A DNA stretch of 64,000 nucleotides from Mobula hypostoma (Eukaryota): contig NC_086107.1 of the NCBI RefSeq assembly GCF_963921235.1, positions 93,746,001-93,810,000 of the forward strand. The letters run 5' to 3'. This document shows positions 8,111-58,820 of this stretch, in pieces; position 1 is the first letter of the stretch, and every line of letters starts with the position of its first letter. The position numbers and the translations under genes were made by a program. The notes beneath the pieces are model-generated. The model worked only from the letters and a program-made list of their open reading frames with translations, did no database searches and was not told the DNA's origin.

Positions 8111-8476
8111 GTGAGAGTAAGCGTTTAGCGTGGACTAGAAGGGCCGAGGAGGCCTGTTTCTGTGCTGTAAATGTTATACGGTTATAAAAAAAAGGCAGAT
8201 GAGAGGGGGAAAGTTTAAAGGGGACGTGCGAGGCAAGTTGCTTTACACAGAGCGTGATGGGTAACAAACACACACAATGCTTGAAGAACACAGCAGGTCA
8301 GGCAGCATCTATGGAGGAGAATAAACAGTCGACGTTTCGCACCACGATCCTTCATTGGGACTTAGAGTGTGAGGGGTGCCTGGAATGAGCTGCCAGATAG
8401 TGGAGAAGGGGTGTTGGTGGTGAAGGCAAATAAAGCAGTGGTGTGTAAGAGGCTGATACATAGCAATACATAGCAA

Positions 8477-11400
8477 TGTTGGGACCAACAACATAGGCAG
8501 GAAGAGGAATGAGGTCCTGAAGTGTGAGTTTCGGGAACTTGGCAGAAGGCTGAAGAACAGGACCTCAAGGGTGACGTTCTCAGGATTGCTGCCAGTGCTA
8601 CGTGACAGAGATGGTAAGAATTGGAAAAGATGGCAGTTGTATGCGTGGCTGAGGAGTTGATGCAGGGAGCAGGGTTTTAGATTTTTGGATCATTGGGATC
8701 TCTTCTGGGGAAGGTGGGACCTGTACAGATTGGATGGGTTGTACCTGAACTCGAGGGGGAGCAATATCCTTGCAGGTAGATTCGTTGGCATGGTTCGGGA
8801 GGGTTTAAACTAATTTGCGAGGGGGATGGGACCCAGAGCGATAGAGCAGTGAAAGAAGTGCATGGAATAAAGCCAGATCTAACATACAGAGAGGCTTTGA
8901 GGAAAGAGAAGCAGAATAAACGGTGTAAAGACAGTAAGGTAGAAGGGCCGAAATGTATGTACCTCAATGCAAGGAGCATCAGGAACAAAGGTGATGAACT
9001 GAGAGCTTGGATACATACATGGAATTATGATGTAGTGGCCATTACAGAGACTTGGCTGGCACCAGGGCAGGAATGGATTCTCAATATTCCTGGATTTCAG
9101 TGCTTTAAAAGGGATAGAGAGGGTGGAAAAAGGGGAGGAGGAGTGGCATTACTGGTCAGGGATACTATTACAGCTACAGAAAGGGTGGGTAATGTAGCAA
9201 TATCCTCTTTTGAGTCAATATGGGTGGAAGTCAGGAACAGGAAGGGAGCAGTTACTCTACTGGGGGTATTCTATAGGCCCCCTGGTAGCAGCAGAGATAC
9301 CGAGGAGCAGATTGGGTGGCAGATTTTGGAAAGGTGCAAAAGTAACAGGGTTATTATCATGGGTGACTTTAACTTCCCTAATATCGATTGGCACCTGATT
9401 AGTTCCAATGGTTTAGACGGGGCAGAGTTTGTTAAATGTGTCCAGGATGGATTCCTGTCACAGTATGTGGACAGGCCGACCAGGGGGAATGCCATACTAG
9501 ATCTAGTACTAGGTAATGAACCGGGTCAGGTCACAGATCTCTCAATGGGTGAGCATCTGGGGGACAGTGACCACCGCTCCCTGATCTTTAGCATTATCAT
9601 GGAAAAGGATAGAATCAGAGAGGACAGGAAAATTTTCAATTGGGGAAGGGCAAATTATGAGGCTATAAGGCTCGAACTTGCGGGTGTGAATTGGGATGAT
9701 GTTTTTGCAGAGAAATATACTATGGCCATGTGGTCGATGTTTAGCGGTCTCTTGCAGGATGTTAGGGATAAATTTGTCCCGGTGAGGAAGATAAAGAATG
9801 GTAGGGTGAAGGAACCATGGGTGACAAGTGAGGTGGAAAATCTAGTCGGGAGGAAGAAGGCAACATACCTGAGGTTTAGGAAGCAAGGATCAGCTGGGTC
9901 TATTGAGGAATATAGGGAAGCAAGAAAGGAGCTTAAGAAGGGGCTGAGAAGAGCAAAAAGGGGGCATGAGAAGGCCTTGGCGAGTAGGGTAAAGGAAAAC
10001 CCCAAGGCATTCTTCAATTATGTGAAGAAAAAAAGGATGACAGGAGTGAAGGTAGGACCGATTAGAAATAAAGGTGGGAAGATGTGCCTGGAGGCTGTGG
10101 AAGTGAGCAAGATCCTCAATGAATACTTCTCTTCGGTATTCACCAATGAGAGGGAATTTGATGATGGTGAGGACAATATGAGTGAGGTTGATGTTCTGGA
10201 GCATGTTGATATTAAGGGAGAGGAGGTGCTGGAGTTGTTAAAATACATTAGGACGGATAAGCCCCTGGGGTCTGACGGAATATTCCCCAGGCTGCTCCAC
10301 GAGGCGAGGGAAGAGATTGCTGAGCCTCTGGCTAGGATCTTTATGTCCTCGTTGTCCACGGGAGTGGTATCAGAGGATTGGAGGGAGGCGAATGTTGTCC
10401 CCTTGTTCAAAAAAGGTAGTAGGGATAGTCTGGGTAATTATAGACCAGTGAGCCTTATGTCTGTGGTGGGAAAGCTGTTGGAAAAGATTCTTAGCGATAG
10501 GATCTCTGGGCATTAAGAGAATCATAGTCTGATCAGGAACAGTCAGCATGGCTTTGTGAAGGGCAGATCGTGTCTAACAAGTCTGATAGAGTTCTTTGAG
10601 GAGGTGACCAGGCATATAGATGAGGCTAGTGCAGTGGATGTGATCTATATGGATTTTAGTAAGGCATTTGACAAGGTTCCACGCGGTAGGCTTATTCAGA
10701 AAGTCAGAAGGCATGGGATCCAGGGAAGTTTGGCCAGGTGGATTCAGAATTGGCTTGCCTGCAGAAAGCAGAGGGTCATGGTGGATGGAGTACGTTCATA
10801 TTGGAGGATTGTGACTAGTGGTGTCCCACAAGGATCAGTTCTGGGACCTCTACTTTTTGTGATTTTTATTAATAACCTGGATGTGGGGGTAGAAGGGTGG
10901 GTTGGCAAGTTTGCAGATGACACAAAGGTTGGTGGTGTTGTAGATAGTGTAGAGGATTGTCAAAGATTGCAGAGAGACATTGATAGGATGCAGAAATGGG
11001 CTGAGAAGTGGCAGGTGGAGTTCAACCTGGAGAAGTGTGAGGTGGTACACTTTGGAAGGACAAACTCCAAGGCAGAGTACAAAGTAAATGGCAGGATACT
11101 TGGTAGTGTGGAGGAGCAGAGGGATCTGGGGGTACATGTCCACAGATCCCTGAAAGTTGCCTCACAGGTAGATAGGGTAGTTAAGAAAGCTTATGGGGTG
11201 TTAGCTTTCATAAGTCGAGGGATAGAGTTTAAGAGTCACGATGTAATGGTGCAGCTCTATAAAACTCTGGTTAGGCCACACTTGGAGTACTGTGTCCAGT
11301 TCTGGTCGCCTCACTATAGGAAAGATGTGGAAGCATTGGAAAGGGTACAGAGGAGATTTACCAGGATGCTGCCTGGTTTAGAGAGTATATATTATGATCA

Positions 11401-11803
11401 GAGATTAAGGGAGCTAGGACTTAACTCTTTGGAGAGAAGGAGGATGAGAGGATGATAGAGGTGTACAAGATAATAAGAGGAATAGATAGAGTGGATAGCC
11501 AGCGCCTCTTCCCCAGGGCACCACTGTTCAATACAAGAGGACATGGCTTTAAGGTAAGGGGTGGGACGTTCAAGGGGGATATTAGAGGAAGGTTTTTTAC
11601 TCAGAGAGTAGTTGGTGTGTGGAATGCACTGCCTGAGTCAGTGGTGGAGACAATTACACTAGTGAAGTTTAAGAGACTACTAGACAGGTATATGGAGAAA
11701 TTTAAGGTGGGGGCTTATATGGGAGGCAGGGTTTGAGTGTCGGCACAACATTGTAGGCCGAAGGGCCTGTACTGTGCTGTACTATTCTATGTTCTATGTT
11801 CTA
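8477..11803 (+). mobile_element. Second long CR1 LINE of a different subfamily: esterase remnant plus ORF2
   Basis: VGTNNIGRKRNEVLK esterase remnant at about 8477; ORF2 pieces 8849-10516, 10556-11455 and 11452-11736; (ttctatg)n tail ending about 11803. Confidence 0.95.
8849..11736 (+). pseudogene. CR1 ORF2 APE-RT with one stop and one frameshift
   Basis: NARSIRNK, ITETWL, GDFNFP, GDSDH; RT motifs [25 protein letters not shown]. Confidence 0.95.
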
Positions 11804-11808
11804 TTTAA

Positions 11809-11829
11809 TACCGTACCAAAGTCTTAGGC

Positions 11830-11866
<37 letters not shown>

Positions 11867-12370
11867 GTGTGTATATAGCTAGAGTGCCTAAGACCTTTAC
11901 ACGGTACTGTATTAGTCAACGTGAAGCGGAGAGCAAGTTTGTAAATCAGGCGGGAGCAAAGGATGTTGGGAATGGTGAGGGTGAAGCGTCACAGGAGGGG
12001 TAGCAGAGAAGGTGTCAGGGGTGGGGTGTGGTGTGGGTGCGGACACACCCAGCCCTGAGATACCAGGCAAGGTCATTTGATTCCAAACAATTGGTATACT
12101 GATCATTGCAGAATGTCTTTCTGGTGCTTCCCGCTTCCTCTCCTCTCCCTTCCCCTTTTCCCAACCATGATTCCCCTCTCCCTGCCCCCTTCCCACTCTC
12201 AGTCCACAATACAGACCCATATCAGAATCAGGTTTATCATTACTCACATATGTCATGATTTTTGGGTTTTTTTGTGTCAGCAGTACAGTGCAATACATAA
12301 AATTACTACAGTACTGTGCAAGAGTCTAAAACACCCGAGCTGTATACATGTGTTTTTGCATAGGACTGTA
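11809..12370 (+). mobile_element. Composite Tc1-type non-autonomous element, copy A (hairpin mini-MITE, cargo, hairpin mini-MITE)
   Basis: Both ends carry degenerate TACAGTACTGTGCAAAAGTCTTAGGCAC...GTGCCTAAGACTTTTGCACAGTACTGTA modules; the cargo is shared with 7 other copies. Confidence 0.8.
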
Positions 12371-14206: not shown

Positions 14207-15562
14207 GCAGTGCAGTGCTATATATATACTTCGGAGGCCTAAGACTTCTGCACAGTACTCTAGTAATTTTATGTATTCCACTGTACTGCTGTCACAAAAA
14301 AAAAATTAGATTTATTGACATATGTCGGGGGGAGGAGAAGATGGCGGCGCGACACAGCGCGCGTGGCCATTCCGAATGATATTGTATCTGTGAAGTAGGA
14401 TGCTGTGCACAATCCTGATTTGATAGAGACAGACGTGAAGAAGCACGGAGGAACATCTGGAGTAACTTCTGAAATGCCCGCTTCACTGCCGCTGCTACTG
14501 CGCAATCGAGAATCGAGATCCAGAGGGAAGGCCCCAAATCCTCGGCCTTGCGTATCGCCTGTTGCCGGGGCCGGGGTCGAAGCACTCAGCAAAGATGGTG
14601 CTCGGTTCATGGGTGTCAGGGAGCTGGTCGGAGGCTCGGAGTTTTCGGACAGACTCGGAGTCGGACTGTGGTCGGATGCTTCCAGGATGCTGCATCGGCA
14701 AGTTTGCGGTGCTGGAGGTTTACCGTCTGCGTGAGATGATGGGACTTTCGAGAGACTCTGTGATTTTACCATGCCCATGGTCTGTTCTTATCAAATTACG
14801 GTATTGTTTTGCACTGTTGTAACTACATGTTATAATTATATTGTTTTCGTCAGTTTTTCTGTCTTAGTTTATCATGTGTCTCTGTGATATCATTCTGGAA
14901 AAACATTGTATCATTTCTTAATGCATGCAATACTAAATGACAATAAAAGAGGACTGTGTGTCCTCATAATCTAATCTAATCTAATATGTGAGTGATGATA
15001 AACCTGATTCTGATATGGATCTCCGTTGTGGACTGAGAGTGGGAAGGGGGCAGGGAGAGGGGAATCATGGTTGGGAAAAGGGGAAGGGAGAGGGGAGGAA
15101 GTGGGAAGCACCCGAGAGACATTCTGTAATGATCAATAAACCAATTGTTTGGAATCAAATTACCTTGTCTGATGTCTCAGGGCTGGGTGTGTCTGCACCT
15201 GCACCACCCCTCACTCCTGGCACCCCTTCTCTGCCACCTGGCCAGGCAGGGTCATTTGATTCCAAACAATTGGTTTCTTGATCATTACAGAATGTCCCTC
15301 TGGTACTTCCCACTCCCTCCCCTCTCCCCTTCCCCTTTTCCCAACCATGATTCCCCTCTCCCTGCCCCCTTCCCACTCTCAGTCCACAACAGAGACCCAC
15401 ATCAGAATCAGGTTCATCATCACTCACATATGTCATGAAATTTTCTTTGTGTTCAGCAGTACAGTGGAAATTTACTGCACTGTGAAATTTTAGAGTGCTG
15501 TGTAAAAGAATTAGTCAGCCTAGCTGTATATATATGTGTCTGAGACTTTTGTTCTGTACTGT
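14207..15562. mobile_element. Composite Tc1-type element, copy B: two head-to-head partial copies, with an insertion
   Basis: Minus-orientation part 14207-15240 and plus-orientation part 15242-15562; hairpin modules at both outer ends. Confidence 0.75.
14326..14983 (+). mobile_element. Non-autonomous CpG-rich retroelement with (CTAAT)n tail
   Basis: TSD ATATGT at 14320-14325 and 14984-14989; starts ggggggaggagAAGATGGCGG; AATAAA then ctaatctaatcta tail. Confidence 0.8.
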
Positions 15563-16311
15563 AATTGTTCAGTAGATCGTCCAGTTATTGTAATACAGCT
15601 GATTCTGTATATTTCTAAAAAAAATTCTTGGTTTTTCTTCAGCAGGTGTCACACCACTCGAATCTGGCAATTTTATAGGTTAATTATTGTCACTGGAATG
15701 TTATTATCTCTCCTCTGAGCATGAGGGGACCGTAAACAAGCAAAAACTGCAGACGCTGGAAATCCAAAGCAAGACACACACAAAATGCTGGAGGAACTCA
15801 GCAGGTCAGGCTGCACCTATGGAAATGAATAAACAGTCGACGTTTCGGGCCGAGACGATCATGACTTTTTTTCTTTTGTCGCTGTTTGTTCTTTGATCCT
15901 ATAACGCTTAACAAAACGGCCATAACCGCCAACTTTTATGCCTCATTCTTGACTTCTGTAGAACCTCAGAAAACAAATATCACCCGATCCAACAAGTCTT
16001 ATGGTCTTATGAAGTGACGGTGATGGGCAATGCACCATTACAACACATTGTATATACACACATACACGTGCACTAGACCTTACCAGGCAGTCAGCAGTGG
16101 AAATGGTAAGCAGCTTCAAATGTCAGGTCGTCAACATCTTGGGGGATCTATCCTGCATGAACCACTTAGATAAAAACCATGAAGAAAGCCTGACAGCATC
16201 TCTTCTTTCTTAGAGGCTTGAAGGAGACTCGGCGTGTTATCGAAGACTGACAAAGTTCAACAAACAGATGGTGAAAAGCATTCTGACTGGTTACATCATA
16301 AGACCGTAAGA

Positions 16312-17829: not shown

Positions 17830-18208
17830 TTCTCTATCCGTCACTCTTTCTATCTCTCTCTCTCTCTCATGTCTAATGCTGTTATGTTTATTTTGTTTAT
17901 TTTCCTCAGTACGGTATAACTTATGCCAGTTTAAGTCTATGTTGATTTATACTTATCACATTCATGATGAACTGTGGTGCTGCTGTGAAAAGCTCATTAT
18001 AATGACATTGATAGCCTAAGTATGTGTGCCCAATATAATAAACTTGAAACTTGAACTTGCAACTTTAACCACGTGAGCCTGTGGCAAAGAAGTAGTAGAT
18101 CTCCTTGGGGAGAGGAGTTCAGCCATGAAAACACAGATGAAGAGCTTGAGAGAGGATGGAAAACTTGAGCCGGTGCCCACATTAGTCAGGAAGATCAATA
18201 TGGCGCAT

Positions 18209-20275
18209 TTATATCGCCAGGGTGCCTAAGACTCTTGCACAGCACTGTATTTGCCAACGCGTTGCGGAGAGCAAGTTTGTAACTCTAGTGGGAGCAACGG
18301 ATTTTGGGAATAGCGAAGGTGCAGTGCGGTGGGAGGGGTGTGGGACAGTTGGCAGAGGAGTTCCAGGGCAGACAGTGTGGGGGTGATGCAGCTGCAGACA
18401 CACCCAGCCCTCAGACACCAGGTAAAGTTCTTTGATTCCAGACAATTGTTCATTGATCAATACAGAATGTCTCTCTGGTGTTTCCCGGTCCATCCCCCTT
18501 TTCCCAACTGTGATTCCACTCTCCCTGCCCTTTTTCCCAGCCATGATTCCCCTCTCCCTTTTCCCAACCATGATTCCCCTCTCCCTTTCCCTTTTCCCAA
18601 CCATGATTCCCCTCTCCCTTCCCCTTTTCCCAACTATGGTTCCCCCTTTCCCTTCCCCTTTTCCCAACCATGATTCCCCTCTCCCTTCCCCTTTTCCCAA
18701 CCATGATTCCCCTCACCCTTCCCCTTTTTCCAACCATGATGCCCTGCTCCTTTTCCCAACCATGATTCCCCTCTCCCTTTCCCTTTTCCCAACCATGATT
18801 CCCTTCTCCCTTCCCCTTTTCCCAACCATGATTTCCCTCTCCCTTCCCCTTTTCCCAACCATGATTCCCCTCTCCCTTTCCCTTTTCCCAACCATGATTC
18901 CCCTCTCCCTTCCCCTTTTCCCAGCTATGGTTCCCCCTTTCCCTTCCCCTTTTCCCAACCATGATTCCCCTCTCCCTTCCCCTTTTCCCAACCATGATTC
19001 CCCTCACCCTTCCCCTTTTTCCAACCATGATGCCCTGCTCCTTTTCCCAACCATGATTCCCCTCTCCCTTTCCCTTTTCCCAACCATGATTCCCCTCTCT
19101 CTTCCCCTTTTCCCAACCATGGTTCCCCCTCTCCCTTCCCCTTTTCCCAACCATGATTCCCCTCACCCTTCCCCTTTTCCCAACCATGATTCCCCTCTCC
19201 CTTTCCCTTTTCCCAACCATGATTCCCCTCTCCCTTCCCCTTTTCCCAACCATGGTTCCCCCCCCTTCTCCTTTTCCCAACCATGATTCCCCTCTCCCTT
19301 CCCCTTTTCCCAACCATGATTCCCCTCACCCTTCCCCTTTTCCCAACCATGATTCCCCTCTCCCTTTCCCTTTTCCCAACCATGATTCCCCTCTCCCTTC
19401 CCCTTTTCCCAACTATGGTTCCCCCTTTCCCTTCCCCTTTTCCCAACCATGATTCCCCTCTCCCTTCCCCTTTTCCCAACCATGATTCCCCTCACCCTTC
19501 CCCTTTTTCCAACCATGATGCCCTGCTCCTTTTCCCAACCATGATTCCCCTCTCCCTTTCCCTTTTCCCAACCATGATTCCCCTCTCTCTTCCCCTTTTC
19601 CCAACCATGGTTCCCCCTCTCCCTTCCCCTTTTCCCAACCATGATTCCCCTCTCCCTTTCCCTTTTCCCAACCATGATTCCCCTCTCCCTTCCCCTTTTC
19701 CCAACCATGGTTCCCCCCTTTCCCCTTTTCCCAACCATGATTCCCCTCTCCCTTCCCCTTTTCCCAACCATGATTCCCCTCTCCCTTCCCCTTTTCCGAA
19801 CCATGATTCCCCTCACCCTTCCCCTTTTCCCAACCATGATGTCCTGCTCCTTTTCCCAACCATGATTCCCCTCACCCTTCCCCTTTTCCCAACCATGATG
19901 CCCTGCTCCTTTTCCCAACCATGATTCCCCTCTCCCTTCCCCTTTTCCCAACCATGATTCCCCTCTCTCTTCCCCTTTTCCCAACCATGGTTCCCCCTCT
20001 CCTTTCCCCTTTTCCCAACCATGATTCCCCTTCTCCCTGCCCCCTTCCCACTCTCAGTCCACAACAGAGACCCATATCAGAATCAGGTTTATCATCACTC
20101 ACAGGTTATGAAATTTGTTTTTGTTTTTTTGTGGCAGCAGTACAATGCAATACATAAAATTACTACCACACTGTGCAAAAGTCTTAGCGCATATATATAT
20201 ATAGTCTTATAGCCTATAGTCATACATACATATATATATACACACACACACCTGAGATTTTTGCACAGTACTGTA
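18209..20275 (+). mobile_element. Composite Tc1-type element, copy C, inflated by an internal minisatellite
   Basis: gggtgcctaagactcttgcacagcactgta at the left, hairpin module at 20164-20275, cargo on both sides of the array. Confidence 0.8.
18497..20040. repeat. 33-bp pyrimidine-rich minisatellite, roughly 46 units
   Basis: Unit ccatgattcccctctcccttccccttttcccaa with recurring variants; 11-aa periodicity (FPTMIPLSLPL) in the ORF track. Confidence 0.95.
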
Positions 20276-22091: not shown

Positions 22092-22395
22092 CTTGTGAAA
22101 TGGATTGTCTATGGCTACAGTATAGTGCAATACATAAAAAAAACTATAAATTAGAATAAGAACTAGATGTAAAAAAGTAAGTAAAATGAGCAAAATAGTG
22201 AGGTAGTGTTTATGAGTTCAGTGTCCGTTCAGGAATCTGATGGCAGAGGGGAAGAAGCTGTTCCTGAAACTTTGAGTGTAGATCTTCAGGCTCCTGTATC
22301 TCCTCCCTGATGGCTGTAATGAGGTGGGTGCGTGGTCTGGGTGATAAAGAAAGCAGCTCATATACTGAGGACCTCCTGCCTCCCCAGTGTCCTAT

Positions 22396-24835: not shown

Positions 24836-25746
24836 TCTGTTCTAGTAAATGGAGTTTTGTAGTTTAAGTAGATAATTGAGGTTTGTGTCTTTCAGTCTTA
24901 ACAAGCCGTATCCTCAAAACTTTTTGTTGTAATGAAACCATCACTATGTGTCCAATAATATCAGAACCCAAGTGTGGAGAAAAGACAGACTCTAATGTAG
25001 AGACAGTGATGAAAGTTTATTTATTATAATTCCAAAAGAACATCGGTGGCTCAGCGAGTGAGACTGAGAAATGTAACATTCTCAAAACTAGGACCCTGCA
25101 ATTAGCGCTAATCAGGCGTCCACTTAAATGATACAAGTATCACAGAATCCCCAAGCCTTTTAAAGCTTATACAGAAGGCACCAGGTGACCACGTTAAAAA
25201 GAGTGAGTTGCTCGAGAAAAACACAAAGAGCGCTAAATAAACGATTAATGACTCTCGTTGAGCAACAATTAATCAATTCAGGTTCTCTAAAACCTTGGAG
25301 CCCAGCACTCTCCGGTGCCCCGCAGAGGCCCAAAGAGCTCATCACAGACATAATGTACGAATGTTATCCGGCTCCCTGCATAGACTAGAAAGATGTGGGA
25401 TTTGTAGAGAACATCTGCATGTCTGACCTTGTGATGGACGGAAGGTGATGGATGAAGCAAAAGCAGATGGTTGGGCTTCAGGCACTTCCGTGCGGAACTC
25501 CTATAGAGAAGTCCTGGGGCTGGGGTAATTGACCTCCAACAACCACAAGGTGATCCAAACTTTCAGAGAAGCATTTCAAAAGATAGGCAATCAAATCTTC
25601 CATTGCACAAGAAAAAAATCCTCAACAGTGCACAAACTCATGAACACTACATCACTATTCCTCCTTTGCACTACATATTTTATTTACGTTTTAATTACAA
25701 TAATTTATTATGCCTGCTGCCACAAATCAACAAATTTCATGGCTTA

Positions 25747-26475
25747 GAGCACTGTGCAATAGTCTTAGGCACATATATATAGCTATTCGTCAATGTGGAG
25801 TGGAGAGTGAGTTTGTAAATCTGGTAGAAGCAAAGGATGTTGGGGATTTTGAGGGTGGAGTGCCATGGGAGGGGTCATTGGGTGTATTTAAGGCAGAGAT
25901 TGATAGGTATCTGAGTAGCCAGGGCATCAAAGGTTATGGTGAGAAGGCAGGGGAGTGGGACTAAATGGGAGAATGGATCAGCTCATGACAAAATGGTGGA
26001 GCAGACTCAATGGGCCGAATGGCCGACTTCTGCTCCTTTGTCTTATGGTCTTATGGGCATAGAACAGGTGGCAGAGACGGAGTGCCAGGGGTGGGGGGAG
26101 GGTGTGGTGTAGGTGCAGACACATCCAGCTCTGAGACACTAGGCAGGGTCATTTGATTCCAAACAATGGTTTATTGATCATTGCAGAATGTCTGTCTGGT
26201 ACTTCCCACTCCCTCCCCTCTCCCTTCCCCTTTTCCCAACCATGATTCCCCTCTCCCTGCCCCCTTCCCACTCTCAGTCCCTAACAGAGACCCATATCAG
26301 AATCAGGTTTATCATCACTCACATATGTCATGAAATTTGTTTTTCTTTGCAATAGCAGTACAGTGCAATACATAAAATTACTACAGTACTGTGCAAAAGT
26401 CTTAGGCACCCTAGCTCATATATATGTTTGTTTATGTGTGTGTGTGCGTGCACTTAAGACTTTTGCACAGTATGA
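25747..26475 (+). mobile_element. Composite Tc1-type element, copy D, with a CR1 3' fragment inserted (about 25870-26055)
   Basis: Shared cargo; right hairpin tacagtactgtgcaaaagtcttaggcac...cttaagacttttgcacagta. Confidence 0.8.
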
Positions 26476-26739
26476 TATGTCAATGACAAAACACCTGATT
26501 CTGATTCTATTTTTGAGGTGTATGAAATCATGAGGGGTAGAGAAAAAATGAATGCACTCAGTCTTTTCCCTAGGGTTGAGGACTCAAGAACCTAAGGGCG
26601 TAGGAAAGGTTGGATCAGAACTTGAGAAGAAGTTTATCACCAAGGGGGTGGCCCACACATAGAACAAGCAGCTAGAGGAGCCAGGTACACTAACAACATT
26701 GAAAAGATACTTGAACAGGAACGTGGATAGGAAAGATTG

Positions 26740-28879: not shown

Positions 28880-29090
28880 GAGATACTGCGCAGGAACAGG
28901 ACTTTCCAATTACAACCCAGTGACCAATTAACCTGCTCAGCCGACATGTTTGGAATGTAACGGGGGAAACCGGAGTCCTCAGAAAAACCCACGGGGAGGA
29001 TGGATGAACTCCTCACAGACAGCGGCGGGAATCGAACCCAGGGCGCTGGCTCTGTAATGCATTACTCTAATCACTACAGTACTGTGCCGG
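28880..29090 (-). mobile_element. V-SINE (HE1-like)
   Basis: gggaaaccggag..aaaacccacg..aactcctcacagacagcggcgggaatcgaaccc (B box on the minus strand). Confidence 0.65.
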
Positions 29091-30520: not shown

Positions 30521-31092
30521 TGTGATATTAACGATACTAAAACAGGAGTAACTCAGGCTGTGAGAAACCTTCACTGACAGGTAATTAACGAATCGTGCCT
30601 ATTATGCATTTATACAGCGTTCAGTTAATGGTTTCGTAATTGTGGATTTTGGGTTGTCAGAAAATGAAATTTCCTCTGACAGAGTATCTGGTGGCAATAG
30701 ATCAAGACATCCTCCATTTCTAATTAATAACAGAAGGGTTTTTATAATGAGGCTAGGACAGAAGTATTTTACTCTGCATGGAAGCTGTTTGGGATGGAGA
30801 CACGAGAGAAGAGTTGTTTGGCACACTCCATAATTCCATGCTGGAGCACGACAGTGACACTCTGTCTGACAAACCGAGGCGGAATAGATCCATCAAGTTG
30901 AGAGGCCTGTGAGAGCAACTTGCTGGGTTTTTAGACTCCAAACCAGAATCAGGTTTATTACCACTAACTTAACGACGCAAAATTTATTGTTCTGCGGCTG
31001 CAGGATGGTGAAAAGACATAAAATTACTATAAATTGCAAAATTAACTAAACGATGCAAAGTAGCAGAATAATGAGATGGTGTTCATGGAATA

Positions 31093-32193: not shown

Positions 32194-32745
32194 TACAATA
32201 CTGTGCACAAGTCTTAGGAACATAAACATAGCTAAGTTGCCTAAGACTTTTGCACAGTACTGTAGTAATTTTATGTATTGCCCTGTACTGCTGCCGCAAA
32301 AAAAGAAACAAATTTCATGATATCTGTGAGTGATGATAAACCTGATTCTGATATGGGTCTCTATTGTGGACTGAGAGTGGGAAGGGGGCAGGGAGAGGGG
32401 AAACATGGTTGGGAAAAGGGGAAGGGAGAGGGGAGGAAGCGGGAAGCACCAGAGAGACATTCTGTAATGATCAACAAACCAATTGTTTGGAATCAAATGA
32501 CCTTGCCTGTATCTCAGGGCTGGGTGTGTCTGCACCCCCACCCCGAACCTCCTGGCACTCCTTCTCTGCCACCTGCACCACGCCCCTTCCCGCGGTGCTC
32601 CACCCTCGCCATTCCCAACAACCTTTGTTCCCGCCAGATTTACAGACTCGTTCTCGATTCCACCACATTGAAAACTACAGTGCTGTGCAAACCTCTTAGG
32701 CACCCTAGTGGTGTATATGAGCCTAAGACTTTTGCACAGTGCAGT
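32194..32745 (-). mobile_element. Composite Tc1-type element, copy E (complete)
   Basis: Hairpin modules at 32194-32264 and 32676-32745 around the shared cargo. Confidence 0.85.
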
Positions 32746-32749
32746 AGAA

Positions 32750-33897: not shown

Positions 33898-34280
33898 TAC
33901 AGTACTGTGCAAAAGTCTACGACACATTCATATAGCTAGGGTGTCTAAGGCTTTTGCACAGTACTGTAGTATTTTATGTACCGCACTATAGCGCTGCCAC
34001 AGAAAAAACTATTTCATGACACATGTGAGTGATGATAAACCTGATTCTGATATGGGTCTCTATCGTGGACTGAGAGTGGGAAGGGGACAGGGAGAGGGGC
34101 ATCAAGGTCAGGGAAAGAGGAAGGGAGACTGGAGGGAGCAGGAAGCACCAGAGAGACATTCTGTAATGGTCAATAAACCAATTGTTTGGAATCAAACAAC
34201 CATGCCAGGTGTCTCAGGGCTGGGTGTCTCTGCGCCCGCGCCAACCCCCACCTCTGCTATCTGCCCCACACCCCTCCCAA
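33898..34280 (-). mobile_element. Composite Tc1-type element, copy F (partial)
   Basis: Hairpin tacagtactgtgcaaaagtc...gcttttgcacagtactgta at 33898-33968 plus part of the cargo. Confidence 0.8.
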
Positions 34281-35124
34281 CGGTGAAAGGTGAAAGGTGA
34301 AAGTCACAGACTTCCATTTTGTGGGGCCAGGCTGGTTTAACTCAAGCTCTGATCCCCAACCAGACCTTTTGCTCTGAAAGTTCATCCCCCGACCCCCACC
34401 CACCAATATATGAAATGACCACAGATGCAGGTTTCAAAAACAATTTAACCTTCCAGTCCACCTTTTAGTTGAGAACAGCTCAAGAAGAGTGCTGGAGACA
34501 ATAGAGATTCCACAGATGGAGGGAAATCTGGTGTACCACAAATAAAATGCTGGAGGAACTCAGCAGGTCAGGCAGCATCCATGGACAGAAATAAACTGTT
34601 GACTCTTCAGGCTGAGACCCTTTATCAGGATTGAAATACCAACCATTCATTTCTCTCCATAGATGCTGCTTGACTTGACTGAGTTCCTCCAGCATTTTGT
34701 GAGTGTCGCTGAAGAAGAGTCTATCAGATCCCATCTTTGACACTGTCCCAGAGCTGCCAGAGCTGGGGTTCAAAGCAAAGCACACCCCCTCCTGTACAGC
34801 GGCAAGGCAGATGCTGACGGTCGGAACACACCTCGCCTCCTCTCACCCTCCCTCACACATCTCACACCCCCCTCGCACCTCACCCCTACCTCCTACGCTG
34901 AACAGGCAAGGCCATTGTGACAGGGTGTGGCTCCAGGCAACAAGCATTTAAGGTCCAACCCCAGAGGTTAGAACGCAGAATTTGAAGCCTCCACGAGGGG
35001 CACATTTTTTACCCAGAGAGTGGGAGGTGTCTGGAATGGATTGCTGGGTTAGTAGTGGAATCAGGCACTGTGGAGGAGTTCATGAGGGCTTTTAGATGGA
35101 CAGGCGAATACAAAGGGAAGGGAT

Positions 35125-47025: not shown

Positions 47026-47530
47026 TACAGTGCTCTGCAAACCTCTTAGGCACACGTATATCGCTAGGGTGCCTAAGACTTTTGCACAGCACTGTAGTAA
47101 TTTTACGTATTGCACTGTACCGCTGCCACAAAAAATAACAAATTTCATGACATATGTGAGTGATGATGAACCTGACTCTGCTATGGGTCTCTATTGTGGT
47201 CTGAGAGTGGGAAGGGGGCAGGGAGAGGGAAATCGTGGTTGGGAAAAGGGGAAGGAGTGGGAAGGACCAGAGAGACATTCTGTAACGATCAATAAAGCAA
47301 TTGTTTGGAATCAAATGACTGTGCCTGGTGTCTCAGGGCTGGGTGTGTCTGCCACCCGCACCAATCACCCCTGGCACCCCTTCTCTGCCATCTGTCCCAC
47401 ACCCCTCCCTCACCATTCCCAATATCCTTTGCTCCCGCCAGATTTTCACACTCGCTCTCTGTTCCACGTTGACACCGTGCAAGAATCTTAGGCACCCTTG
47501 CTGTATATATGTGCCTCTGACTTCTACTGT
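47026..47530 (-). mobile_element. Composite Tc1-type element, copy G
   Basis: Hairpin module at 47026-47096, cargo, degenerate second module about 47475-47530. Confidence 0.8.
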
Positions 47531-49095: not shown

Positions 49096-49651
49096 TACAG
49101 TCCCGTGTAAAAACATTAGGCACCTATATACCGTTTGTATATATAGCTAGGGTGCCTAAGACTTTTGCACAGTACTGTATTTGTCAATATGGAGCAGGGA
49201 ACGAGTTTGTAAATCTGGTAGCAGCAAAGGATGTTGGGAATGTCAAGGGTGGAATGCATGGGATGCGTGTGGGACAGGTGGCAGAGAAGGGGTGCCAGGA
49301 GTGAGGGGTGGTGCAGGTGCAGACACACCCAGCCCTGAGATACCAGGCAAGGTCATTTGATTCCAAACAATTGGTTTAATCATCATTACATAATGTCTCT
49401 CTGGTGCTTCCCACTCCCTCCCCTCTCCCTTCCTCTTTTCCCAACCGTGATTCCCCTCTTCCTGCCCCCTTCCTACTCTCAGTTCACAATAGAGACCCAT
49501 ATCAGATTCAGGTTTATCATCATTCATATTTATCATGACTTTTTCTTTTTTGCAGCAGTACAGTGCAATACATAAAATTACTGCAGTGGCTTGCAAAAGT
49601 CTTAGGTACCCCAGCTATAATTATGTGCCAGAGACTTTTGCACAGTACTGT
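49096..49651 (+). mobile_element. Composite Tc1-type element, copy H (complete)
   Basis: Hairpin modules at 49096-49179 and 49581-49651 around the shared cargo. Confidence 0.85.
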
Positions 49652-49764
49652 AAATCTTCATCTCTCCTCTTGTTTCTGTGCTTTTTTCAATAATTCATTT
49701 AATACACAGCAATGCCTCTGCTGTCTCTACCCTGGGTTTCATTGAAATGCAAGGGTGCAATCTC

Positions 49765-52760
49765 TTTGGATTCAAAGTACGCTTATTACCAAAGTATGCA
49801 CGCACGATATATCTCTGAGATTCATCTTCCCACAGACACCCACGAAACAAAAAAAAAATGGAACTAATTTTCATCAACCTCCCCCCCAACGTGAAAAAGA
49901 AAACAAATCATGCAAACAACAAAAAAAAGAGCAAAAACGCAGGATATAAAACACAAAATCAAAAGGTATATTTCAGTTCAGTTCGGTGTTAATTATCTTC
50001 AGGCAACCCCGATTCAAAATCGCCCCAGCTAGAAACAAAGGAAAGGAGAGACGAGAAGCTAGAAGACATCATAACCACGAATTAGAGTCCACAATCCACA
50101 AACCACAACGATTAGACCTTGCTCCAGTACCATCCTTTGACAGTATCGAGGGAGAGTGGGAGAGATCATTCAATTGCTAGGACCTTCCCACCGTAGCAGC
50201 GAGCCGTCACACGCAGACACCTTCCTCGGCAACAGCGAGCAAGAGGTTGGTAGACGCTCGCCTCCACACCCGCCTCGATGATCTCAGCCTTCCTCGGCGT
50301 TTTAATCGGCGAGAGAGGGAGACGGTCACGGGCTCGCTGTCTGTCTCCAAGTGTCCTGGCCCTGCGCCTCACATTTTTCTCGTGGCCTCGAGGAACCCTC
50401 TCGGAGACAGCAAGGCGCCAGATCGCCCAATTGGCCCGAAAGCACGCTGCCAGAATGTACAACAGTGGCAGAACCACATCAGAAATAAAAAGAAGACGTA
50501 AGGAAGGAAAAGGAATTGCACCGTGACCCATCTTGAGGATAGAACAAGAACATAGAACAGTACAGTACAGTACAAGCCCTTTGGCCCACAATGTTGTGCC
50601 AACCCTTAAACCCTGCCTCCCATATAACCCCCCACCTTAAATTCCTCCATATACCTGTCTAGTAGTCTCTTAAACTTCACGAGTGTATCTGGACCCACCA
50701 CTGACTCGGGCAGTGCATTCCACGCACCAACCACTCTCTGAGTAAAAAACCTTCCTCTAATATCCCCCTTAAACTTCCCACCCCTTACCTTAAAGCCATG
50801 TCCTCTTGTATTGAGCAGTGGTGCCCTGGGGAAGAGGTGCTGGCTGTCCACTCTATCTATTCCTCTTAATATCTTGTACACCTCTATCCTGTCTCCTCTC
50901 ATCCTCCTTCTCTCCAAAGAGTAAAGCCCTAGCTCCCTTAATCTCTGAACTTAATGCATACTTTCTAAACCAGGCAGCATCCTGGTAAATCTCCTCTGTA
51001 CCCTTTCCAATGCTTCCACATCCTTCCTATAGTGAGGCGACCAGAACTGGACACAGTACTCCAAGTGTGGCCTAACCAGAGTTTTATAGAGCTGCATCAT
51101 TTCCTCACGACTCTTAAACTCTCTCCCTCAACTTATGAAAGCTAACACCCCTATAAGCTTTCTTAACTACCCTATCTACCTGTGAGGCAACCCTCTGCTC
51201 CTCCACACTACCAAGTATCCTGCCATTTACTTTGTACTCTGCCTTGGAGTTTGTCCTTCCAAAGTGTACCACCTCACACTTCTCCGGGTTGAACTTCATC
51301 TGCCACTTCTCAGCCCACTTCTGCATCCTATCAATGTCTCTCTGCTCTGCAATCTTCGACAATCCTCTACACTATCCACAACACCATCAACCTTTGTGTC
51401 GTCTGCAAACTTGCCAACTCACCCTTCTACCCCCACATCCAGGTTATTAATAAAAATCACAAAAAGTAGAGGTCCCAGAACCGATCCTTGTGGGACACCA
51501 CTAGTCACAATCCTCCAATATGAACGTACTCCCTCCACCATGACCCTCTGCTTTCTGCAGGCAAGCCAATTCTGAATCCACCTGGCCAAACTTCCCTGGA
51601 TCCCACGCCTTCTGACTTTCTGAATAAGCCTACTGTGTGGAACCTTGTCAAATGCCTTACTAAAATCCATATAGATCACATCCACTGCACTACCCTCATC
51701 TGTATGCCTGGTCACCTCCTCAAAGAACTCTATCAGACTTGTTAGACACGATCTGCCCTTCACAAAGCCATGCTGACTGTCCCTGATCAGACTATGATTC
51801 TCTAAATGCCCATAGATCCTATCTCTAAGAATCTTTTCCAACAGCTTTCCCACCACAAATGTGAGGCTCACTGGTCTATAATTACCTGGACTACCCCTAT
51901 TACCTTTTTTGAACAAAGGGACAACATTCGCCTCCCTCCAACCTTCCGGTACCATTCCCGTGGACAATGAGGACATAAAGATCCTAGCCAGAGTCTCAAC
52001 AATCTCTTCCCTCACCTCATAGGGCAGCCTGGGGAATATTCCATCAGGCCCCAGGGACTTATCCGTCCTAATGTATTTTAACAACTCAACACCTCCTCTC
52101 CCTTGATATCAACATGCTCCAGAACATCAAGCTCACTCATATTGTCCTCACCATCATCAAGTTCCCTCTCATTGTTGAATACCGAACAGAAGCATTCATT
52201 GAGGACCTCACTCACTTCCACAGCCTCCAGGCACATCTTCCCACCTTTATCTCTAATCAGTCCTACTTTCACTCCTGTCATCCTTTTGTTCTTCACATAA
52301 TTGAAGAATGCCTTGGGGTTTTCCTTTACCCTACTCACCAAGGCCTTCTCATGCCCCCTTCTTGCTCTCCTCAGTCCTTTCTTAAGCTCCTTTCTTGCTA
52401 CCCTATACTCCTCAATAGACCCATCTGATCCTTACTTCCTAAACCTCATTTATGCTGCCTTCTTCCACCTGACTAGATTTTCCACCTCACTTGTCACCCA
52501 TGGTTCCTTCACCCTACCATTCTTTATCTTCCTCACCGGGACAAATTTATCCCTAACATCCTGCAAGAGATCTCTAAACATCGACCATATGTCCATAGTA
52601 CATTTCCCTGCAAATACATCATCCCAATTCACACCCACAAGTTCTAGGCTTATAGCCTCATAATTTGCCCTTCCGCAATTTAAAATTTTCCTGTCCTCTC
52701 TGATTCTATCCTTGATGTCACCCTTGGTAGAGTTGTTCGCTGGCGCCATCTTCTTCTGGA
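49765..52760 (-). mobile_element. Non-autonomous CpG-rich retroelement (AAGATGGCG head) split by a CR1 insertion
   Basis: Head gaagaagatggcgcc near 52755 joins at ggtgacatc/ctcaagatggg to the body 50540-49765, which ends in taataagcgtactttgaa. Confidence 0.6.
50541..52713 (-). mobile_element. 5'-truncated CR1, same subfamily as 8477-11803
   Basis: Collinear and highly similar to 9605-11803; flanked by duplicated gat at 50538-50540 and 52714-52716. Confidence 0.95.
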
Positions 52761-57172: not shown

Positions 57173-58820
57173 CAGGAATTCTGCAGATGCTGGAAATTCA
57201 AGCAACACACATAAAAGTTGCTGGTGAACGCAGCAGGCCAGGCAGCATCTCTAGGAAGAGGTGCAGTCGACATTTCAGGCGAGACCCTTCGTCAGGACTA
57301 ACTGAAGGAAGAGTGAGTAAGAGATTTGAAAGTGGGAGGGGGAGGGGGAGATCCAAAATGATAGGAGAAGACAGGAGGGGGAGGGATGGAGCCGAGAGCT
57401 GGACAGGTGATTGGCAAAGGGGATACGAGAGGATCATGGGACAGGAGGCCTAGGGAGAAGGAAAGGGGGAGGGGGGACCCAGAGGATGGACAAGGGGTAT
57501 AGTCAGAGGGACAGAGGGAGAAAAAGGAGAGTGAGAGAAAGAATGTGTGTATAAAAATAAATAACGGATGGGGTACAAGGGGGAGGTGGGGCATTAGCAG
57601 AAGTTAGAGAAGTCAATGTTCATGCCATCAGGTTGGAGGCTACCCAGACGGAATATAAGGTGTTGTTCCTCCAACCTGAATGTGGCTTCATCTTTACAGT
57701 AGAGGAGGCCATGGATAGACATGTCAGAATGGGAATGGGATGTGGAATTAAAATGTGTGGCCACTGGGAGATCCTGCTTTCTCTGGCGGACAGAGCGTAG
57801 GTGTTCAGCAAAGCGGTCTCCCAGTCTGCGTCGGGTCTCGCCAATATATAAAAGGCCACATTGGGAGCACCGGACGCAGTATATCACCCCAGCCGACTCA
57901 CAGGTGAAGTGTCGCCTCACCTGGAAGGACTGTCTGGGGCCCTGAATGGTGGTAAGGGAGGAAGTGTAAGGGCATGTGCAGCACTTGTTCCGCTTACATG
58001 GATAAGTGCCAGGAGGGAGATCAGTGGGGAGGAATGGGGGGGATGAATGGAAAAGGGAGTCGCGTAGGGAGTGATCCCTGCAGAAAGCAGAGGGGTGGGG
58101 AGGGAAAGATGTGCTTAGTGGTGGGATCCCGTTGGAGGTGGCGGAAGTTACGGAGAATAATATGTTGGACCCGGAGGCTGGTGGGGTGGTAGGTGAGGAC
58201 CAGGGGAACCCTGTTCCTAGTGGGGCGGCAGGAGGATGGAGTGAGAGCAGATGTGCGTGAAATGGGGGAGATGCGTTTGAGAGCAGAGTTGATGGTGGAG
58301 GAAGGGAAGCCCCTTTCTTTAAAAAAGGAGGACATCTCCCTCGTCCTGGAATGAAAAGCCTCATCCTGGGAGCAGATGCGGTGGAGACAGAGGAATTGCG
58401 AGAAGGGGATGGCATTTTTGCAAGAGACAGAGTGAGAAGAGGAATAGTCCATATAGCTGTGAGAGTCAGTAGGCTTATAGTAAACATCAGTGGATAAGCT
58501 GTCTCCAGGGATAGAGACAGAAAGATCTAGAAAGGAGAGGGAGGTGTCGGAAATGGACCAGGTAAACTTGAGGGCAGGGTGAAAGTTGGAGGCAAAGTTA
58601 ATAAAGTCAACGAGTTCAGCATGCGTGCAGGAAGCAGCGCCAATGCAGTCGTCGATGTAGCGAAGGAAAAGTGGGGGACAGATACCAGAATAGGTACGGA
58701 ACATAGATTGTTCCACAAAGCCAACAAAAAGGTAGGCACAGCTCGGACCCATACGGGTGCCCATAGCTACACCTTTAGTTTGGAGGAAGTGGGAGGAGCC
58801 AAAGGAGAAATTATTAAGAG
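57173..58820 (-). mobile_element. Penelope-like element (RT C-terminal part, GIY-YIG endonuclease, 3' terminal repeat)
   Basis: GVAMGTRMGPS, FLRYIDD, FLDL, YYKPTDSH; VIYCVRCSQCGLLYIGETRRRLGDRFAEH; frameshift near 58060. Confidence 0.95.
57264..57304 (-). ncRNA. Minimal type I hammerhead ribozyme motif in the Penelope terminal repeat
   Basis: Minus strand agtc-CTGACGA-agggtctcgcct-GAAA-tGTC-gact. Confidence 0.7.

What the first reader, a model, noticed from the sequence alone, without database searches (positions are those of the whole stretch)
32194..32745. Composite transposon: two ~70-bp Tc1 hairpin mini-MITEs moving a captured cargo, 8 copies
Seen: a roughly 550-bp unit recurs at 11809, 14207, 18209, 25747, 32194, 33898, 47026 and 49096 in both orientations. 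In complete copies each end is itself a near-palindrome, TACAGTACTGTGCAAAAGTCTTAGGCAC-(cctagctatata)-GTGCCTAAGACTTTTGCACAGTACTGTA, so the unit has four TIRs. The cargo includes a LINE 3' tail (atcagaatcaggtttatcatcac...cataaaattac) that also stands alone at about 30943-31035, where it continues aaattacTAtaaattg. In the composite the mini-MITE starts exactly at that TA. Established: Tc1/mariner elements begin CAGT and insert at TA. Inference: two tiny MITEs landed about 400 bp apart and then transposed together through their outer TIRs, like a bacterial composite transposon, and amplified ordinary genomic cargo to high copy.
Basis: partly seen in the sequence, partly recalled or inferred. Interest (0 to 1): 0.7.

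Follow-up and report, generated by a model that had tools for sequence, protein, structure and literature searches.

The report
Hairpin-ended composite mini-transposon family
A very common, now dead 550-base jumping element has a tiny complete transposon at each end and a scrap of ordinary DNA between them, so it most likely began as two mini-transposons that moved together as one unit, an arrangement well known in bacteria but rarely seen to spread widely in animals.

Summary
The repeat is real. All 8 named loci belong to one ~551-bp non-coding family (75-86% pairwise identity), but only 3 of 8 keep all four arms. Each end is a 67-bp hairpin between TA dinucleotides, and the two hairpins are inverted copies of one mini-element. 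Flanks are unrelated between copies. Removing copy D and one TA restores the LINE tail it landed in, so the whole unit moved by Tc1-type cut-and-paste. The arm matches 24 of the terminal 25 bases of the Intruder (DD38E) transposon TIR. The left inner arm sits at a native TA of a LINE 3' UTR, which supports a composite origin. Contigs from four organisms show the family is genome-wide and of very high copy (order 10^4-10^5, rough). No partner transposase was found in this host. Composite eukaryotic DNA transposons are known (foldback TE, Ac/Ds macrotransposons, multi-TIR MULEs); the minimal hairpin ends and the scale of amplification are the new part. Dfam and Repbase could not be checked.

The parts
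32194..32746 (+). Copy E, complete unit including both outer TA dinucleotides; inserted in the 3' part of a decayed LINE
   Evidence: joints that skip it in 4 of 4 runs
32196..32262 (+). Left hairpin of E: 26-bp outer arm, 15-bp asymmetric TA-rich spacer, 26-bp inner arm
32263..32352 (+). Inner TA plus last ~88 bp of a LINE 3' UTR (captured cargo, part 1)
   Evidence: alignment with stand-alone tails; 483-709 contigs per run leave the unit at 32352; LINE ORF end upstream of the stand-alone copy at 22093
32353..32675 (+). Cargo part 2, ~320 bp non-coding DNA found in the window only inside this family; source locus unknown
   Evidence: no significant hit outside copies; no Pfam hit for the two ORFs across E; no Rfam match at gathering score
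32676..32746 (-). Right hairpin of E with inner and outer TA; inverted copy of the left hairpin
   Evidence: window consensus left vs right 68 of 71 identical
11804..12370 (-). Copy A, complete; TA-repeat expansion in right spacer, 7-bp deletion in left outer arm; sits at the tail of a LINE
14208..15563 (.). Locus B: left half (+) joined head-to-head to another left half (-) at a short palindromic junction near 15240; interrupted by a 660-bp later insertion at 14326-14985
18202..20275 (-). Copy C with a 33-bp minisatellite (48 units, 18495-20050) grown from the cargo; right outer arm missing
25745..26477 (-). Copy D, inserted at a TA in another copy of the same LINE tail; right inner arm deleted; ~190-bp nested insertion
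33898..34285 (+). Copy F, left ~390 bp only
47026..47526 (+). Copy G, right hairpin decayed
49096..49652 (-). Copy H, complete
30938..31035 (-). Stand-alone LINE tail that continues through the TA without a hairpin (pre-insertion state of the left inner junction)
22093..22391 (-). Stand-alone relative of the tail attached to the C-terminus of a LINE ORF

Best explanation
It is a dead, non-autonomous Tc1-type DNA transposon family that arose as a composite. Step 1 (inferred): an Intruder-like element collapsed to a 67-bp mini-element made of two 26-bp transposase-binding ends. Step 2 (junction shown, event inferred): one end of it integrated at a TA in a LINE 3' UTR. Step 3 (inferred): a second copy came to lie 410 bp away in inverted orientation, also at a TA. 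The routes are an ordinary local hop (about 0.4), one-step sister-chromatid hybrid-end insertion, which by geometry yields two inverted copies with the same arm outward (about 0.4), or two independent arrivals (about 0.2). Step 4 (shown by footprints): a transposase in trans paired the two outermost ends, cut out the whole 551-bp unit and inserted it at TA sites, to very high copy number. Step 5 (inferred): the composite outcompeted the bare hairpin because it puts more DNA between the paired ends and offers four binding sites. The copies have since decayed by 9-15% and have no shown function.
For: Unrelated flanks: mean ungapped identity 0.28 (28 left pairs) and 0.24 (6 right pairs), no cross BLAST hit. 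TA at 11 of 13 scorable outer ends and 12 of 14 inner ends (window TA frequency 0.056). Empty site of D rebuilds the LINE tail across a single TA, 9 spanning hits, best E 4e-8. Contigs in 4 of 4 runs join the host repeat across E (table 5; letters between not known). Left inner end replaces the upstream LINE UTR exactly at a TA present in the stand-alone tail. Left and right hairpins are 68 of 71 identical in inverted orientation. Arm equals 24 of 25 terminal bases of complete 1588-bp elements L003 and L006 with a 341-aa transposase and D-38-E spacing; the L003 left TIR reads the same as the published Intruder 5'TIRo. The parent TIR has no significant inverted inner site (shuffle p 0.52-0.60 in 5 of 5 loci), so the inner arm was not inherited from it. 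[quoted passage not shown]
Against: No solo hairpin: 0 of 15, and no copy with a hairpin cleanly excised. The inner TAs descend from one founder, so they are two events, not twelve. The source of cargo part 2 was not found, so the right inner junction has no empty-site check. Only 1 of 6 in-silico empty sites gave a spanning BLAST hit; E was supported only weakly in the window (left side alone not above shuffles, 22 of 300). No transposase remnant in the window and no named cartilaginous-fish protein among the 120 listed of 1898 homologues, most unnamed. The match to Intruder is 25 bp only and a sister Tc1 family could share it. Intruder is not shown to be an IR/DR element (direct inner repeat p 0.04 in 1 of 5 loci), so step 5 is an analogy.
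Confidence: 0.72

Rival explanations
1. An ordinary Pack-type MITE (26-bp TIR, cargo, 26-bp TIR) whose ends were later extended into hairpins by fold-back template switching, with one end copied onto the other. The hairpin was never a mobile unit.
For: 0 of 15 hairpins are solo. D shows a three-arm form flanked by TA on both sides. In multi-TIR MULEs no TSD flanks the inner TIR and slippage is proposed (PMC3310237, passages).
Against: The inner arms end precisely in the cleavage tip plus TA (12 of 14), and the left one sits at a native TA of the LINE UTR. Fold-back gives no reason for that. No copy in the window has single TIRs at both ends.
Confidence: 0.15
2. Two ends of longer Intruder-like elements inserted on either side of the cargo; the bodies were then deleted and the two ends homogenised by conversion.
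For: Explains both inner TAs without a free mini-element.
Against: Needs two matching deletions or a conversion to give the same 15-bp spacer at both ends. The spacer does not resemble the parent sequence beyond base 25.
Confidence: 0.08
3. The unit spread by retrotransposition using its LINE tail (a SINE-like or transduction route).
For: It carries a LINE 3' tail; the left part is present in 9 of 9 pieces and read depth is far higher on the left.
Against: The tail is internal, next to the 5' hairpin. Both ends stop at TIR plus TA, with no tail repeat or long TSD. The right cargo is CpG-rich and more diverged (12% non-CpG, 27% CpG), which can drop it below the 80% cut-off and explain the depth skew.
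Confidence: 0.03
4. Segmental duplication or assembly artefact.
For: High local density, 8 loci in 64 kb.
Against: Flanks unrelated; copies 75-86% alike; family present in contigs of four organisms from four studies.
Confidence: 0.01

Closest known systems
Intruder (IT, DD38E) Tc1/mariner family (Gao et al. 2020, PMC7731502; passages, section 5 and supplement searches seen)
   Same: 24 of the terminal 25 TIR bases; TA target; L003 has the published length (1588 bp), ORF (341 aa) and 5'TIR.
   Different: Intruder is autonomous with ~210-bp TIRs; similarity here stops at base 25. The paper lists ray-finned fish, jawless fish, a frog, arthropods and a cnidarian and mentions no MITE; five cartilaginous-fish name stems gave no hit in the readable supplements (cells over 400 characters are cut).
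MADE1 / MiHsmar1 minimal MITE (PMC5224488, passages)
   Same: A hairpin made of two TIRs and a short spacer (37+6+37 bp) from a Tc1/mariner parent.
   Different: MADE1 amplified as a solo hairpin; here the hairpin is seen only as the two ends of a larger unit.
Eukaryotic composite transposons: Ising TE between foldback elements (PMC6431247, passage), Ac/Ds macrotransposon (PMC3260210, passage), Ac alternative transposition and Composite Insertions (PMC4270019, passages); Paris pair in Drosophila virilis (recalled, search found nothing)
   Same: Two nearby elements move the DNA between them using their outer ends.
   Different: Those are described as large, individual events with full-size elements; this is 551 bp, built from 67-bp ends, and amplified into a major repeat family.
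Sleeping Beauty sandwich vector pT/SA (PMC8151067, passage)
   Same: Extra transposase-binding ends on both sides of a cargo.
   Different: Engineered, inner ends disabled for cleavage, used for cargo over 7 kb; here the inner tips are intact in consensus and cargo is 410 bp.
Multi-TIR MULEs (PMC3310237, passages) and Pack-TIRs (PMC8277862, passages)
   Same: Four TIRs and captured host DNA; doubled TIRs linked to better amplification.
   Different: MULE extra TIRs are mostly tandem, lack inner TSDs and reach 13-29 copies; multicopy Pack-TIRs were four cases (1.4%) in animal reference genomes and carry cargo inside one element.

Membership tests
Non-autonomous Tc1/mariner element (MITE) | TA target-site duplication | tested here: met
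   11 of 13 scorable outer ends; single-TA empty site for D
Non-autonomous Tc1/mariner element (MITE) | TIRs matching an autonomous Tc1/mariner element | tested here: met
   24 of 25 bases vs L001-L006
Non-autonomous Tc1/mariner element (MITE) | Short, non-coding | tested here: met
   551-bp consensus; no Pfam hit for the two ORFs across E
Non-autonomous Tc1/mariner element (MITE) | High copy, dispersed | tested here: met
   8 loci in 64 kb; summed cargo depth 0.3-1.2 million against 4-16 on the unique flank in 4 runs (the tool warns this is not a copy number)
Composite transposon | Two complete elements flank a non-mobile cargo | tested here: met
   Each hairpin has two full tips with TA on both sides; cargo includes a cut LINE UTR
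Composite transposon | Unit moves through the outer ends | tested here: met
Composite transposon | Flanking elements are independently mobile (solo copies exist) | tested here: inconclusive
   0 of 15 solo in the window; solo ends cannot be told from outer ends because the hairpin is palindromic; no genome held
Intruder (DD38E) family | DD38E transposase in the element or a partner in the same genome | tested here: inconclusive
   None in the window; genome not available; no named cartilaginous-fish hit in 120 listed of 1898
Intruder (DD38E) family | Mobilised by IT transposase | not testable with these tools
   Needs an excision or transposition assay
SINE or LINE-mobilised retroposon | LINE-like tail at the 3' terminus and variable-length TSD | tested here: not met
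   Tail is internal; both ends are TIR plus TA
Known named repeat in Dfam or Repbase | Match to a curated consensus | not testable with these tools

The most novel reading that the evidence does not exclude
This is a natural sandwich transposon: one minimal Intruder-type hairpin, itself a poor substrate, was duplicated in a single sister-chromatid hybrid-end insertion, and the resulting four-site composite became one of the most abundant DNA-transposon families of rays. It would be a rare case of a composite DNA transposon amplified to 10^4-10^5 copies in a vertebrate and a trace of Intruder-type activity in cartilaginous fish, where the published survey lists none. End choice is directly testable with the published active IT transposase.
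Probability: 0.3. Interest if true: 0.7.

Novelty: new variant of a known kind. Interest (0 to 1): 0.5.

Why it matters
It gives a route by which a transposon family is born from two minimal ends and arbitrary DNA, with the junctions still readable. It poses a testable question on end choice: with four intact tips, why are the outer pair used and solo hairpins rare? It may also bear on annotation: the family covers about 6.7% of this window, while DNA transposons are reported at 0.9-2.9% of batoid genomes (bioRxiv 10.64898/2026.10.27.761883, passages) and TcMar at 2.3% in rays (PMC12361510, passages). A family with an internal LINE tail could be mis-filed or could make up much of that fraction (inference). 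No host function is shown.

Tried and rejected
Whole-genome mapping: no genome held. Outer arms more decayed than inner arms: significant (21% vs 12%, p 0.001) but that count included a truncated arm; with 10 of 12 scorable hairpins (A left and G right dropped as gapped) it was 43 of 260 vs 29 of 260, p 0.10, Wilcoxon p 0.24; dropped as a claim. Hairpin inherited from an inverted inner site in the parent TIR: not supported. Exact C-variant TIR in prokaryote genome contigs and viral contigs: 0 hits each; all hits in the metagenome scan were the T variant. Solo versus composite count from contigs: loose ends at 32264 (389-646 contigs per run) mix outer ends, right inner junctions and any solos, so inconclusive. 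Low depth on hairpins and right cargo is not taken as absence. Orthologous empty sites: none expected or seen, since copy E appears older than the split of the organisms laid (inference from word shares); 4 of 23 listed runs were laid. Empty sites for A, C, E, G, H gave no spanning hit. Two weak arm-like sites outside the family (8436-8470, 29075-29087) were read and are not hairpins. Rfam: five matches, all below gathering score, generic hairpins. Pfam on three short LINE peptides: nothing significant. Subfamily structure: no consistent shared variants among 9 pieces. Earlier notes: no look-alike by sequence or words.

Full report
Observation. The unit at 32194-32746 is as described. BLAST against the window finds it at all eight named places. 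A search for the 26-bp arm at up to 7 mismatches gave 25 matches, all within these loci, and 1 match in 20 shuffled windows. Nine pieces align to a 551-bp majority consensus; they are 75-86% alike and 8.6-14.8% from the consensus. Only A, E and H keep four arms. D has lost the right inner arm, G has a decayed right hairpin, C lacks the right outer arm, F is the left 390 bp, and B joins two left halves head to head.

Anatomy. Each end is arm, 15-bp spacer, arm, and folds as a hairpin. The spacer is asymmetric. Read from the outside in, all hairpins show the same order, and the left and right consensus hairpins agree at 68 of 71 positions. The two hairpins are thus inverted copies of one mini-element, and the whole unit has ~70-bp TIRs that are themselves palindromes. 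TA follows 12 of 14 scorable inner tips and 11 of 13 scorable outer tips (the left end of A was mis-indexed there and its TA is at 12369-12370 in the printed context; B1). The right outer ends of C, F and G and the right inner end of D could not be scored.

The unit moved as a whole. Sixty-base flanks are unrelated. Joining the flanks of D across one TA rebuilds the LINE tail it landed in, with 9 spanning hits. The other 5 of 6 reconstructed sites had no spanning hit, and E was only weakly supported in the window. In contigs of 4 of 4 runs, the host repeat on both sides of E is joined across the unit, although the letters between are not given.

The cargo. Bases 32263-32352 match three stand-alone tails. 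The one at 30938-31035 continues through the TA without a hairpin, so the left inner tip sits at a native TA and the upstream UTR is missing. The copy at 22093 follows a LINE ORF end that is 48% identical to another in the window, which has a PF09004 hit next to a weak RVT_1 hit; the label Rex1/Babar for this type is recalled. In each run 483-709 contigs leave the unit at 32352, as expected for the end of an independent LINE family. The other ~320 bp occur in the window only inside the family; their source was not found.

The partner. A metagenome scan returned six loci. L003 and L006 are complete 1588-bp elements with ~210-bp TIRs and a 341-aa transposase with 38 residues between the second D and the E. 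The L003 left TIR reads the same as the Intruder 5'TIRo in the supplement of PMC7731502. The arm matches 24 of its first 25 bases and nothing beyond. The parent TIR holds no significant inverted inner site. No transposase remnant lies in the window, and none of the named proteins among 120 listed of 1898 homologues is from a cartilaginous fish; most have no name. The partner in this host is therefore inferred.

Scale. Four of 23 listed runs, from four organisms and four studies, were laid on E at 80% likeness. Summed depth on the composite-specific cargo (32374-32493) was 0.78-1.20 million against 7.6 on the unique flank in X1, and 0.30-0.74 million against 4-16 in the others. The tool states that this is no copy number; I take it only as order 10^4-10^5, in line with 8 loci in 64 kb. 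Earlier unchecked notes call this genome a ray; the repeat content looks like one to me from recall; I did not test this.

Results against the reading. A profile of seven hairpins found 15 hairpins, all in family loci, and nothing outside below E 0.3 (control best E 1.9). No copy shows a hairpin cleanly excised. Depth on the arms is not above cargo, but arms and right cargo map poorly, so this is weak. The inner TAs stand for two founder events only. An apparent excess decay of outer arms did not survive a cleaner count.

Mechanism. Shown: TIR identity, TA footprints, whole-unit mobility, a LINE UTR cut at a TA by the inner tip, inverted identical hairpins. Inferred: the mini-element existed at least once as a unit and was duplicated 410 bp away. 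A local hop gives this orientation in some cases. Pairing the outer end on one sister chromatid with the inner end on the other and inserting at the nearby TA gives it necessarily, with the cargo inverted (my geometric inference; alternative transposition with two ends is shown for Ac in PMC4270019, passages). Why the composite won is an analogy: Sleeping Beauty moves MITE-like substrates poorly, whereas Hsmar1 prefers them (PMC5224488, passages), and doubled TIRs go with higher copy number in MULEs (PMC3310237, passages).

Comparison. It is a member of the non-autonomous Tc1/mariner elements on all four features tested. It works like a composite transposon and meets two of three defining features; independent mobility of the hairpin is open. 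It is not shown to be an Intruder member. Ten literature searches found no description of this element or of a high-copy composite of minimal hairpins; the library lacks most subscription papers, and Dfam and Repbase were not available. Long sequence cells in the Intruder supplements are cut and bioRxiv supplements are closed; either could hold ray elements I did not see. PMC3269885 and PMC3599309 were seen as passages and added nothing decisive.

Verdict. Real and well supported as a whole-unit Tc1-type family; composite origin likely (0.72); a new variant of a known kind; interest 0.5.

Noticed in passing
window 18495-20050: A 33-bp minisatellite of about 48 units (1.55 kb) grew in place from the G-rich part of the cargo of copy C; contigs that loop back about 34 bases at the same spot occur in all four runs, so it may be a recurrent seed.
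   Followed up: partly
window 14208-15563: Two left halves joined head to head at a 10-bp palindromic junction near 15240; could be a fold-back product or a variant composite with two left ends.
   Followed up: partly
window 14326-14985: A 660-bp retroposon-like insertion with a 6-bp duplication and a short tandem tail inside copy B.
   Followed up: no
window 32678-32703 and 47028-47053: The right inner arm of E and the left outer arm of G share three derived bases, suggesting conversion between arms or a recurrent template-switch mutation; read data inconclusive.
   Followed up: partly
window 25875-26063: A ~190-bp fragment of another repeat nested in the cargo of copy D.
   Followed up: no
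window 9605-11804 and 50539-52713: Two LINE copies 92% alike with endonuclease and RT domains; copy A abuts the tail of the first.
   Followed up: no
window 57594-58526: ORF with a weak GIY-YIG hit (E 6e-4, below cut-off), possibly a Penelope-like remnant.
   Followed up: no
L003 92-1679 and L006 90-1677: Intact Intruder elements, 99.9% alike, in metagenome contigs, flanked by TA repeats; probably host DNA.
   Followed up: partly
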